60,184 bases of DNA from a virus. The notes beneath the pieces are model-generated. The model did not search any database, was not told the DNA's origin, and worked only from the letters and a program-made list of their open reading frames with translations. Positions 29,031 to 32,087 of this stretch are shown piece after piece; position 1 is the first letter of the stretch; every line of letters starts with the position of its first letter. The stretch lies in IMG/VR virus record IMGVR_UViG_3300006594_000002. One strand, given 5' to 3'. The position numbers and the translations under genes were made by a program.

Positions 29031-31315
29031 CGGTCATTAATTGGGTTGCCCCAATTATATGATGTTTTGACATCCACCAGAAAGGGAACGGAATTGATAC
29101 CCCAAAGACGTGGGGTCTCCTCCATAGCAGACACCACCAAAGCACTTACATCCCGAATCACACTGGGTTTATCGGGACATTCTACTATAATTGAGTCGTG
29201 CACCAGATCGACTATCCCTGCTTTGTATGGGATCAGTTTAGGGCGTACGCGAATGGCTGATAACAGTGTAAAGTCGGAAGCAGTAGACTGATGGGGAAAA
29301 TTGGCGGCTTCGTTTTGTAAATTCTTTAGCATTTCAGGACTGGGATACTTAGCGCGTTTCTTACGCCCAAAGATGGTTACCATAGTTTTTCCACGCACCA
29401 CGGTGCCGCGACAACGATCTATGAATTCCTTAGCCACAGGAAATCTCTTAAACCAGCCCTCGATCATCCGTCTTGCTTCGCTTACAGGAATGTCGAACTC
29501 TTCGGCAATTGAATATTCTTCTCGGCCATAAACGATACCGAAGTTTAAAGCCTTCGCACGTACATACTGATCACCGTCGTAATTAGGCCCAAATAGGGAC
29601 AACGCAACCTCCTTGTGAAGGCTCATGCCGGGAGTGTTAAAAATGCGCAATAAACTAGGATCGCGGCTTTGTACCGCAAGACTGCGCAGCTCTGCCTGGC
29701 TGTAGTCGTTCTCTAATAAAATAAATCCTGGTGCCGCTCTATACATCCCGCGCAGAGCAGCTTCTCTGGGGATGTTCATCAAATTAGGACCATTACAAGA
29801 AAGACGCCCCGTAGTGGTCCCATGAATTAGAAAAGTAGGATGTACTCTGTTATCGCTGCTTACAAGCTCGAAGTAACCTTTTACGTAGGTGGTGTAAGCT
29901 TTCGACGCTTTCCTATAACGCTGTAGGGCCTTCTTGAAAGGCATATTAGGCCATTTAGACACCGCATCAGCATCGGAGCTTCTTCGTTTTCCTCTAATAC
30001 CCAACTCGTCATAAACATATTTACATACCTGTATCGAACTTGCGGGGTTGATACTATAACCCACAATAGTTTTAATCTCCTGCAGCAACTCCTGCAGTTC
30101 CTTTTCTAACCTCTCTTTGTTCTTTTTCTGCCACTCCCAATCCACATAGAAGCCGCGCCTCTCCACGTGATAAAGAAGCTCACTCGCGGGAATAAGAACT
30201 TTAGTGTAGAGTTTTTCAAGGTGGGGATCATCTGCAACCTCCTTACGCAATAGGTGAAAAATCTGTAGAGTACAACTTACGTCCTTAGCTAAGTAGTCAT
30301 AAAGTACATGTTTAGGCACCGTTTCGTAAGAGGCTTTCTTGTTTGGTAAGTAGGCATCCAGTTCGTTCTTCCAATTAGGACACCCTAGTCTATCTACGGA
30401 AATGGTGTCCAACGCATGTGTACCTCGAATCTCATCTAATGCATAATGTAGCAGCATTGTGTCTTCATCTACCCTAGCACGACATTTCAAGTGCCTAAGG
30501 AAACGGATATCAAACTTTCCATTATGCCACAACCACTGAACAGTTTTACATTCAAAAGCCTCCTTTAACAACGGGATGAACTCCCCTGGCACCACGTAAG
30601 TCATTCTAGGGTCCCAACCGATACCTATACAAAGCACACGATGAGATAAGAAATCGAAACCTGTTGTTTCTATGTCTCCCGCAACCACCTTCTTGGACAT
30701 AATTATCTTGCACAGCTTTTTTACGCCGGTGGGTGTTTGCAAAACCTGAAACTTTGGTACAACATATTTTTTGGTAGATGTTCCATTCACAACATCAAAG
30801 GCCTGTTGAATGTCCCCTTTGAGATGCTTAATACTACCACCTCCCCGAAGGACGAATGCGGGGTGTATAGTAGCCATTATACCAAGTTCCGCAAAGGTAC
30901 TTTTAAGTATTTGTCCGCGTATTTGTGTAATCTTAGCACTGAAGTTGCCGGTGGTAGACCACACAGCTGCGTTACCAAGAGCAATAATCATCTTCCTCGG
31001 ATGAGCACTAAGCTCAGCATGTAAGCGGGCTTGGCACAATTTAGTAACTTTGGCAAGCAGCTGCAAGTTTTTATTTCTAGGTAAGCACTGCATAGCGTTG
31101 GTAATATAGCAGTCGTCTAAGCTAACTCCTTGTGGAAGGCATTTAGTAAGAAGCTGTCCTGATATCCCCACAAAAGGCTTCCCAGCACGAACCTCTTCGT
31201 GTCCAGGGCTTTCGCCGATTATAACTATGGGGGATTTTATATTACCTCTTGAACCTACACGAGAGCCTTTAAAGGGGCACTCTTTGCAGCTGTCACAAGT
31301 ATTCTCCATGTGCAA
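29027..31315 (-). CDS. polA: family-A DNA polymerase with 3'-5' exonuclease and an N-terminal family-4 uracil-DNA-glycosylase-like domain
   Basis: UDG4 domain: CDSCKECPF...IIGESPGHEEVRAGKPFVGISGQLL...IHPAFVLRGG. Exonuclease motifs: VAGDIETTG, WHNGKFD, YLAKDV. Polymerase motifs: A, DYSQAELR; B, RAKALNFGIVYG; C, LVHDSIIVE. Confidence 0.9.
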   Translation of the reverse strand: MHMENTCDSCKECPFKGSRVGSRGNIKSPIVIIGESPGHEEVRAGKPFVGISGQLLTKCLPQGVSLDDCYITNAMQCLPRNKNLQLLAKVTKLCQARLHAELSAHPRKMIIALGNAAVWSTTGNFSAKITQIRGQILKSTFAELGIMATIHPAFVLRGGGSIKHLKGDIQQAFDVVNGTSTKKYVVPKFQVLQTPTGVKKLCKIIMSKKVVAGDIETTGFDFLSHRVLCIGIGWDPRMTYVVPGEFIPLLKEAFECKTVQWLWHNGKFDIRFLRHLKCRARVDEDTMLLHYALDEIRGTHALDTISVDRLGCPNWKNELDAYLPNKKASYETVPKHVLYDYLAKDVSCTLQIFHLLRKEVADDPHLEKLYTKVLIPASELLYHVERRGFYVDWEWQKKNKERLEKELQELLQEIKTIVGYSINPASSIQVCKYVYDELGIRGKRRSSDADAVSKWPNMPFKKALQRYRKASKAYTTYVKGYFELVSSDNRVHPTFLIHGTTTGRLSCNGPNLMNIPREAALRGMYRAAPGFILLENDYSQAELRSLAVQSRDPSLLRIFNTPGMSLHKEVALSLFGPNYDGDQYVRAKALNFGIVYGREEYSIAEEFDIPVSEARRMIEGWFKRFPVAKEFIDRCRGTVVRGKTMVTIFGRKKRAKYPSPEMLKNLQNEAANFPHQSTASDFTLLSAIRVRPKLIPYKAGIVDLVHDSIIVECPDKPSVIRDVSALVVSAMEETPRLWGINSVPFLVDVKTSYNWGNPINDR

Positions 31316-32087
31316 GGATCCCTTTTACATAACCCACGTTATAGATCATTTGAGGATTGGATTCGAGAGACGCTAGGAAAAAGGCTTCACGACTCTTAGT
31401 AGGTGCTAGCTCTATCGAAGGTTTGGAAAGGTCAAGTCTTTTATGTTCCCACCCAAGTCTTAGTGGTGTAGCAGAATCTATACCCATTACATCTGCCATC
31501 CGTGACGCACAGAGGAGATCATCATCAATGTGGTCGGAGAAGCCCATTAAATGTATAGGCTTTTTATAGGTACTATGACCATTAAGCCACCCCACAACCT
31601 CACGTCGGGAGCCATTTATATTCGCATACGCTCTTGGTATTCCCCAAGCCTTTATGGATCTCTCTTTATCATGCCTCCAATAAGCCTCCGTACAGAACTG
31701 CATCTCGTAGTGGGTTTTTCCTTGTATTACTGCGAGAAACCCTCTGCTGCAAAACTCCGCTAGTTCCTGCCATGCAGGATCTTCTAGAGCACTTTTAACC
31801 GCTTTTACACTAGCCGGGGTATCCATTAGAACATCGGGGAGTACAATATACGACGGAGAAACAATTTCTGCCGCCTCTAACATCATAGGGGCATCGACCG
31901 CACCACCTAGTTCTATAAGGCTGTTGTCTAATATAACTATCCCTGAGCGATTTTTGAAGAAATCCTCGTAGAGCTTTGCTTCTTTCACCACGTCGTGGGC
32001 AAGCACAAGCCAGTAGCCATCATCGTAGCCGGCATCACAAAGACTTTTTAAAAGGTGGATGTTGCAAACAGGTGAGTATTTAGCCAT
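31293..32087 (-). CDS. dpdA: DpdA-like DNA (tRNA-guanine-transglycosylase-fold) 7-deazaguanine transglycosylase
   Basis: 264 aa. ILDNSLIELGG and IHLMGFSD occupy the positions of the TGT DSGGFQ and HL.G.G.P catalytic Asp motifs. The gene directly follows queE and overlaps the polA start. Confidence 0.6.
   Translation of the reverse strand: MAKYSPVCNIHLLKSLCDAGYDDGYWLVLAHDVVKEAKLYEDFFKNRSGIVILDNSLIELGGAVDAPMMLEAAEIVSPSYIVLPDVLMDTPASVKAVKSALEDPAWQELAEFCSRGFLAVIQGKTHYEMQFCTEAYWRHDKERSIKAWGIPRAYANINGSRREVVGWLNGHSTYKKPIHLMGFSDHIDDDLLCASRMADVMGIDSATPLRLGWEHKRLDLSKPSIELAPTKSREAFFLASLESNPQMIYNVGYVKGILAHGEYL

What the first reader, a model, noticed from the sequence alone, without database searches (positions are those of the whole stretch)
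31293..32087. The DpdA-like protein is short, has no obvious Zn site, and is translationally chained to the DNA polymerase
At 264 aa it is much smaller than bacterial TGT. I could not find the CxCxxC...H zinc motif of TGT; its cysteines are scattered. Its last 23 nt overlap the polA start (31315/31309). The order queE-dpdA-polA suggests stoichiometric co-expression of the modification enzyme and the replicase. This could be a divergent DpdA subfamily, or a replication-coupled mode of base exchange rather than purely post-replicative modification.
Basis: inference. Interest (0 to 1): 0.6.

Follow-up and report, generated by a model that had tools for sequence, protein, structure and literature searches.

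The report
Minimal zinc-free DpdA3 beside phage polymerase
This phage gene encodes a stripped-down member of the already named DpdA3 family, enzymes thought to swap guanine in phage DNA for a 7-deazaguanine; its small size and missing zinc site are normal for that family, and what is new is how strictly it sits just upstream of the DNA polymerase gene in related phages.

Summary
ORF 31293-32087 (-) encodes 264 aa, has five scattered Cys and no CxCxxC motif. It overlaps the polA start by 17 nt (ATG 31309) or 23 nt (TTG 31315).

It belongs to the known DpdA3 subfamily (Hutinet 2023, PMC10516641):
- Its family profile hits the founding members, Cellulophaga phiST CGPG_00065 (259 aa; hhalign 99%, E 5e-18) and Campylobacter CP220 CPT_0056 (E 1e-21).
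- D54, D85 and D204 are invariant in 75 members and line up with the three TGT/DpdA active-site aspartates.
- The zinc motif falls in a deletion and is absent from the whole family.

So "short, no Zn" is a family trait.

Gene overlap is the norm in this operon and is not conserved among relatives. Adjacency is conserved: polA follows in 62 of 74 informative DpdA3-seeded viral loci, and DpdA3 lies upstream in 77 of 77 polA-seeded loci. This linkage is not discussed in the papers I read. Physical or replication-coupled action remains untested.

Verdict: new member of a known kind, moderate interest. The scan noted this cassette once before, on this same window and not on other DNA.

The parts
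31293..32087 (-). dpdA3: 264-aa minimal TGT-fold transglycosylase. Invariant in the family: D54, N55, D85, G123, R161, H179, G182, D204. No Zn motif.
29027..31315 (-). polA: family-4 UDG-like domain + 3'-5' exonuclease + family A DNA polymerase. Start is ATG 31309 or TTG 31315.
31293..31315 (-). dpdA3/polA overlap: 23 nt with the TTG start, 17 nt with the ATG start. A weak AAGGG Shine-Dalgarno-like word lies 10 nt before the ATG.
   Evidence: read directly from the sequence
32087..32857 (-). queE (7-carboxy-7-deazaguanine synthase). Its stop overlaps the dpdA3 ATG by 1 nt (TAATG).
   Evidence: TIGR03365, 217.6 bits, above cut-off
32854..33393 (-). queD (6-carboxy-tetrahydropterin synthase, PTPS family)
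33403..34176 (-). folE (GTP cyclohydrolase I)
34145..34801 (-). queC (7-cyano-7-deazaguanine synthase)
   Evidence: TIGR00364, 180 bits, above cut-off
34803..37756 (-). Upstream part of the same replication/recombination operon: HTH protein, DUF669 SSB-like protein, Sak4-like AAA_24 ATPase, PD-(D/E)XK exonuclease.
   Evidence: The same order occurs in most related viral loci.
37788..37816 (-). Sigma-70-like site TTGAGG-17-TATAAT just upstream of the nuclease gene. Possible operon promoter, a consensus match only.
   Evidence: Promoter-like sites in the region are no more frequent than in shuffles.

Best explanation
The ORF encodes a DpdA3-subfamily transglycosylase. It is a TGT-type (beta/alpha)8 barrel reduced to its catalytic core, with no Zn subdomain. 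By homology it should work by the TGT/DpdA double-displacement mechanism. D204 would act as the nucleophile that displaces guanine and forms a covalent enzyme-deoxyribose intermediate. D54 would act as general acid/base. [quoted passage not shown] The incoming base is the product of the co-encoded FolE-QueD-QueE-QueC pathway, which is preQ0 or a close precursor such as ADG or CDG, because no QueF, ArcS, DpdL, DpdM or DpdN is present. The outcome would be phage DNA with guanine replaced by a 7-deazaguanine, which protects it from restriction. The gene is the last of the modification cassette. It lies in one tightly packed replication operon directly upstream of the UDG-exo-PolA gene, so enzyme and polymerase are made together while DNA is being synthesised. 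Shown here: family membership, fold, conservation of catalytic residues, absence of the Zn site, operon layout, conserved adjacency. Inferred: substrate, chemistry, timing. Not shown: any physical contact with the polymerase.
Against: No DpdA3 has been shown to work in vitro or in a heterologous host; the authors' E. coli tests failed (PMC10516641). P0001 matches no Pfam, NCBIfam or PADLOC-independent curated model. The mapping of D54 and D85 rests on a permissive profile alignment with only 6% hhalign probability, plus their position at strand ends in the model. It does not rest on a residue-level superposition. This phage's DNA has not been analysed, so neither the modification nor its extent is known.
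Confidence: 0.75

Rival explanations
1. Replisome-coupled exchange. DpdA3 binds the UDG-exo-PolA and swaps bases on nascent DNA at the fork. This would explain the near-complete replacement reported for other DpdA3 phages.
For: polA is the next gene in 62 of 74 informative DpdA3-seeded loci, and in 49 of 50 rows of the window's own clade, despite 40% identity or less. All 77 polA-seeded loci with upstream sequence carry dpdA3 upstream on the same strand, 70 of them within 400 nt. The order of folE, queD and queE varies while dpdA3 stays last. A dpdA gene also sits beside a different polymerase in phiST (split DnaE type) and in 9g.
Against: Adjacency can be explained by shared descent of one replication module and by co-regulation. 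No fused DpdA3-polymerase protein was found. CP220 and Chryseobacterium phage MA9V-3 DpdA3 genes are not next to a polymerase. Overlap of the two genes is not conserved.
Confidence: 0.1
2. Pre-replicative route. DpdA3 exchanges the base on a free deoxynucleoside or deoxynucleotide, and the linked polymerase then incorporates the 7-deaza-dGTP analogue.
For: Other DpdA3 phages show 100% replacement, and ADG nucleoside has been reported in CP220-infected cells (PMC10516641). In phiST and CP220, DpdA3 is flanked by P-loop kinase-like proteins (AAA_18, AAA_28, AAA_33), an HD domain and MazG. This window also encodes Gpt and a MazG-like pyrophosphatase. The polA clade and dpdA3 co-occur strictly.
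Against: All characterised members of the TGT/DpdA superfamily act on polynucleotides. No nucleotide kinase was found in this window. MazG and Gpt are common phage genes. The published view is post-replicative insertion. Nothing here tests the substrate.
Confidence: 0.1
3. It is a tRNA-guanine transglycosylase acting on host tRNA, not on DNA.
For: The fold is that of TGT.
Against: It falls in the phage DpdA3 clade, not in TGT, and has no PF01702 match. It lacks the Zn subdomain and the insertions of TGT. The phage encodes no tRNA. The gene sits in a DNA replication operon.
Confidence: 0.03

Closest known systems
DpdA3 subfamily (Cellulophaga phage phiST CGPG_00065; Campylobacter phage CP220 CPT_0056; Hutinet et al. 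2023, PMC10516641)
   Same: Similar length (259-264 aa). Full-length profile match. Same predicted fold. Same invariant Asp/Asn/Arg/His/Gly set. Encoded with 7-deazaguanine synthesis genes.
   Different: Only about 21-27% identical. The window's clade carries QueC, so preQ0 or ADG is expected, whereas phiST stops at CDG and adds DpdL. The window's clade is tied to a UDG-exo-PolA. phiST is tied to a split DnaE-type polymerase, and CP220 to no polymerase.
Bacterial DpdA (Salmonella Montevideo, PDB 7UI4; PMC10164549)
   Same: Best PDB sequence hit. The nucleophile Asp, the HLLG motif and the base-reading position align. The same double-displacement chemistry is expected.
   Different: DpdA has 416 residues and carries Ins1, Ins2, Ins3 and the 128-residue Ins8, pinned by a CxCx2Cx22H Zn site. 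It needs the DpdB ATPase. The window protein has none of these, and no dpdB is present.
Bacterial tRNA-guanine transglycosylase (Z. mobilis and E. coli Tgt)
   Different: No N-terminal beta lid. No Zn subdomain: E. coli 297-307 with CDCYTC falls in a gap, and the His333 position is Tyr249. About 110 residues shorter. No Pfam TGT match.
Phage DpdA1 (Enterobacteria phage 9g, 317 aa)
   Same: A short phage enzyme that also lacks CxCxxC...H. It is also encoded directly upstream of the phage's polymerase genes, after the que genes.
   Different: No detectable profile similarity to the DpdA3 family. Partial replacement is reported (up to about 30% of G per PMC10516641; 27% for 9g per PMC10710427), against 100% reported for DpdA3 phages.
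DpdA4 / DUF6610 (Halovirus HVTV-1 gp69, 386 aa)
   Same: Weak partial relation: hhalign 62%, E 8e-5, over 120 columns. Eight of 37 family members weakly hit PF20314.
   Different: Longer, from archaeal viruses, and not matched by P0001 itself.

Membership tests
DpdA3 (phage 7-deazaguanine DNA transglycosylase subfamily 3) | Full-length sequence/profile similarity to the founding members (phiST CGPG_00065, Campylobacter phage homologue) | tested here: met
   hhalign 99%, E 5.4e-18, 237 columns. HMM E 5e-24 for phiST and 1e-21 for CP220. Pairwise BLASTP E 4e-8.
DpdA3 (phage 7-deazaguanine DNA transglycosylase subfamily 3) | TGT-like (beta/alpha)8 fold | tested here: met
DpdA3 (phage 7-deazaguanine DNA transglycosylase subfamily 3) | The three TGT/DpdA active-site aspartates are conserved | tested here: met
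   D54, D85 and D204 are invariant in 75 members. D204 aligns to DpdA D256 in the HMMER alignment. D54 and D85 align to Tgt D89 and D143 only in a permissive alignment.
DpdA3 (phage 7-deazaguanine DNA transglycosylase subfamily 3) | Encoded together with 7-deazaguanine precursor synthesis genes | tested here: met
   folE, queD, queE and queC lie immediately upstream. The same holds in most related loci.
DpdA3 (phage 7-deazaguanine DNA transglycosylase subfamily 3) | Guanine / 7-deazaguanine exchange in DNA, with complete replacement of G in virion DNA | not testable with these tools
   Needs LC-MS/MS of virion DNA and an enzyme assay. Not shown in vitro for any DpdA3 (PMC10516641).
Canonical TGT / bacterial DpdA (Pfam PF01702, PF23859) | Structural Zn site CxCxxC...H | tested here: not met
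   No such motif in P0001 or in any of 75 relatives. The Tgt motif falls in an alignment gap.
Canonical TGT / bacterial DpdA (Pfam PF01702, PF23859) | Match to the curated family model above its cut-off | tested here: not met
   P0001 has no Pfam or NCBIfam family. Only 1 of 37 relatives hits PF01702 (E 0.0023) and 1 of 37 hits PF23859 (E 0.058).
Canonical TGT / bacterial DpdA (Pfam PF01702, PF23859) | Large beta8/alpha8 insertion (Ins8, Zn subdomain) and partner ATPase DpdB | tested here: not met
   Only 60 residues follow D204, against 160 after D256 in DpdA. No dpdB-like gene is in the operon.
DpdA1 (phage 9g type) | Profile similarity to 9g DpdA | tested here: not met
   No significant alignment and no HMM hit in the 9g genome.
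DpdA4 / DUF6610 | Match to PF20314 or to HVTV-1 gp69 | tested here: not met
   P0001 has no PF20314 hit. The family profile against gp69 is only partial, 62% probability.

The most novel reading that the evidence does not exclude
The strict, deep linkage between dpdA3 and the polymerase gene reflects a functional dependency. Either DpdA3 acts at the replication fork, or it acts on the nucleotide pool and a co-adapted polymerase installs the 7-deazaguanine. On this reading, complete guanine replacement by DpdA3 phages is not purely post-replicative, contrary to the current published view.
Probability: 0.15. Interest if true: 0.8.

Novelty: new member of a known kind. Interest (0 to 1): 0.35.

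Why it matters
DpdA3 is the only DpdA subfamily associated with complete replacement of guanine, and no member has yet been shown to work biochemically. How a base-exchange enzyme could reach 100% is an open question.

This work adds three things:
- The family is large, with at least 1136 clusters at 50% identity. It is uniformly a Zn-free minimal barrel that keeps all three catalytic aspartates.
- In a big, mostly uncultured phage clade it is tied to one polymerase lineage without exception in the sample examined.
- Brevundimonas phages StAshley and MaInes are cultured proxies in which the modification, its extent and any polymerase dependence could be tested directly.

For annotation, proteins of this family are currently labelled hypothetical and are missed by Pfam and NCBIfam.

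Tried and rejected
- **Complex prediction.** DpdA3 with PolA residues 27-760, both chains given as alignments, scored 0.00. The tool returned no verdict, so this is neither evidence for nor against binding.
- **Single-sequence and low-diversity profile comparisons.** The family compared with E. coli Tgt, 9g DpdA1 and a DpdA1 alignment gave nothing. These failures reflect remoteness and low Neff. They do not indicate non-homology, because the fold match is clear.
- **Search for fused, longer forms.** None was found, which is weak evidence. The best 150 of 1136 representatives are all 219-290 aa.
- **Net charge and pI as a proxy for DNA binding.** Uninformative: the family median pI is 5.7, similar to Tgt (5.97) and DpdA1 (5.64).
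- **Nucleotide search of the cassette against isolated phages.** No match.
- **Whole-genome or host look-up.** No genome is held for this window, so the host stays unknown.
- **Supplementary tables of PMC10516641.** Not held, so I could not check whether relatives of this clade are already in the authors' DpdA3 list.
- **Promoter and terminator scans.** Counts were no higher than in shuffles.

Full report
**Observation.** The ORF at 31293-32087 on the minus strand is real and encodes 264 aa.
- Its five cysteines (positions 8, 17, 113, 132, 193) form no CxCxxC or CxxC motif.
- The downstream ORF is a 760/762-aa protein with a family-4 UDG-like domain, a 3'-5' exonuclease domain and a family A polymerase domain.
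- That ORF can start at TTG 31315 or ATG 31309, so it overlaps the end of the dpdA-like gene by 23 or 17 nt.
- Upstream on the same strand lie queE (1-nt TAATG overlap), queD, folE and queC. Further upstream are an HTH protein, a DUF669 SSB-like protein, a Sak4-type ATPase and a PD-(D/E)XK nuclease.
- Six of the nine junctions in this run overlap when the longest ORFs are taken, so the overlap with polA is not special.

**What the protein is.**
- It matches no Pfam or NCBIfam model.
- It has a very large family of proteins of the same size: 1136 representatives at 50% identity with E of 0.001 or better, and the best 150 are all 219-290 aa.
- A 37-member alignment (A1) compared with Cellulophaga phage phiST CGPG_00065 gives hhalign probability 99%, E 5.4e-18, over 237 of 259 residues. 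That protein is the one on which Hutinet et al. 2023 founded the DpdA3 subfamily (PMC10516641).
- As an HMM, A1 finds that gene in the phiST genome (E 5e-24) and one ORF in Campylobacter phage CP220, CPT_0056 (E 1e-21).
- The same HMM finds the archaeal-virus DpdA4 only at E 0.019, and finds nothing in phage 9g, which carries DpdA1.
- A direct comparison with DpdA4 is partial (62%, E 8e-5). Eight of 37 members weakly touch PF20314, the DpdA4 family.
- The protein is therefore a DpdA3, with DpdA4 as a distant cousin.

**Fold and active site.**
- AlphaFold2 on A1 gives a confident barrel (pLDDT 96.9, pTM 0.93).
- All leading Foldseek hits in the PDB are tRNA-guanine transglycosylases.
- Among viral models, the phiST DpdA3 ranks second (TM 0.73/0.74).
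- The best PDB hit by sequence profile is Salmonella DpdA, 7UI4 (E 5.9e-4, and 5e-5 with a broader profile).
- In that alignment, family D204 (GIDS) sits on DpdA D256, the nucleophile. The second L of the family HLLG motif (M181 in this protein) sits on L236, and the family's VxQG sits on VAH181G. Residue roles are from PMC10164549.
- In 75 distinct members, including phiST, CP220 and a Chryseobacterium phage, eight positions are 100% conserved: D54, N55, D85, G123, R161, H179, G182 and D204.
- A permissive profile alignment to gammaproteobacterial Tgt has only 6% probability. I use it as a guide, not as evidence of homology.
- That alignment puts D54, D85, Q122, L180-M181-G182 and D204 on E. 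coli D89, D143, Q187, L243-M244-G245 and D264.
- It also puts Tgt residues 297-307, which hold CDCYTC, into a gap, and it places Tyr249 where the fourth Zn ligand (His333) would be.

**The zinc site.**
- No family member has CxCxxC, and some have a single cysteine.
- Only 60 residues follow the nucleophile, compared with 160 in bacterial DpdA, where Ins8 and the Zn site lie.
- The Zn subdomain is therefore deleted family-wide.
- Phage 9g DpdA1 (317 aa) also has no cysteine after its catalytic CDSSS motif.
- Zn-free, short enzymes are therefore usual among phage DpdAs. This does not argue against action on DNA.

**Expected product.** The operon encodes FolE, QueD, QueE and QueC, with TIGR03365 and TIGR00364 both above cut-off. 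Scans of the remaining early genes found no QueF, ArcS, Gat domain or DpdL/M/N. The base offered to DpdA3 should therefore be preQ0 or a precursor (ADG, CDG). This is inference.

**Link with the polymerase.**
- A viral-contig search seeded on DpdA3 returned 80 loci.
- In the tree of 75 distinct proteins, 62 of 74 informative rows have polA as the next gene on the same strand.
- The window falls in a well-supported clade (SH-aLRT 97) of 50 rows, of which 49 have polA next. Identities there are 40% or less and the median terminal branch is 0.82 changes per site across the whole tree.
- The order of folE, queD and queE varies between loci, but dpdA3 is always last.
- A second search seeded on the polymerase is independent of DpdA3. 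It returned the 80 closest relatives (37-48% identity).
- All 77 of those loci with enough upstream sequence carry dpdA3 upstream on the same strand. In 70 it is within 400 nt, and in 7 it is 424-2160 nt away.
- Among isolated phages, only the two Brevundimonas phages that also carry dpdA3 have a polymerase of this lineage (39% identity). The next best reaches 26%.
- Overlap itself is not conserved. Of 71 adjacent pairs, 46 overlap under the longest-ORF assumption, 8 have gaps of 0-30 nt and 17 have gaps of 31-400 nt.
- Outside this clade the link is looser. CP220 and Chryseobacterium phage MA9V-3 have no polymerase next to dpdA3.
- In phiST, dpdA3 is one small ORF away from a split DnaE-type polymerase. 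In phage 9g, DpdA1 lies directly upstream of the polymerase genes.

**Interpretation.**
- The simplest reading is that the modification cassette is embedded at a fixed place in an inherited replication module and is expressed with it.
- Recurrence beside three unrelated polymerase types hints at selection for co-expression.
- The data cannot separate that from physical coupling or from a nucleotide-level route.
- No fused forms were found.
- The neighbours of DpdA3 in phiST and CP220 are P-loop kinase-like proteins, an HD domain and MazG. This window has Gpt and a MazG-like pyrophosphatase. Both facts are compatible with nucleotide-pool remodelling but are not specific to it.

**Verdict.**
- The polymerase-coupling idea remains an untested hypothesis. 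It now has a quantified genomic regularity behind it and cultured phages in which to test it.

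Noticed in passing
window 29027-31315 (-); loci L004-L083: The N-terminal family-4 UDG-like domain of the polymerase, with Fe-S cysteines near the start, is conserved in 57 of 67 polymerases (500 aa or longer) that follow dpdA3 in related viral loci. Its role in a phage that replaces a purine is unexplained.
   Followed up: partly
window 42460-42906 (-) and 48806-49300 (-): The same phage encodes a xanthine-guanine phosphoribosyltransferase (NF006613, E 8.6e-44, above cut-off) and a MazG-like pyrophosphatase (phrog_5658, E 6e-56). 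Both could handle released guanine or deplete dGTP.
   Followed up: partly
L003 (phiST) 41629-45229 (-); L085 (phage 9g) 36-3960 (-): A dpdA gene also lies next to other polymerase types. phiST DpdA3 is one 67-aa ORF away from a split DnaE-type Pol III alpha that is unannotated in the record. 9g DpdA1 is directly upstream of its two polymerase genes.
   Followed up: partly
L091 (CP220) 6543-9036; L003 46381-47762: In CP220 and phiST, DpdA3 is flanked by nucleotide-kinase-like P-loop proteins (AAA_33 with an HD domain, AAA_28, AAA_18) and MazG. In Bacillus phage BSTP12, the feature annotated over the DpdA3-like hit is NadR-like.
   Followed up: no
L105, L106, L108, L111, L125, L126, L150: In seven polA-seeded loci, 424-2160 nt separate dpdA3 from polA. 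This suggests inserted genes, possibly homing endonucleases, at this junction.
   Followed up: no
Brevundimonas phages StAshley and MaInes (L001; PMC10070969): These are the only cultured relatives. Their GC is about 50%. After dsDNase treatment, the 'ssDNA' winter virome contigs all mapped to these two dsDNA phages. That pattern would fit nuclease-resistant modified DNA, which is my inference and not the authors' claim.
   Followed up: no
window 39984-40673 (-): An HNH endonuclease gene (phrog_374, E 8e-42) sits between the helicase and ligase genes of the early region.
   Followed up: no
window 45862-48294 (-): An 810-aa protein has only a short DUF3854 match and a faint primase PHROG hit. 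It is a likely primase or primase-helicase of an undescribed type.
   Followed up: no
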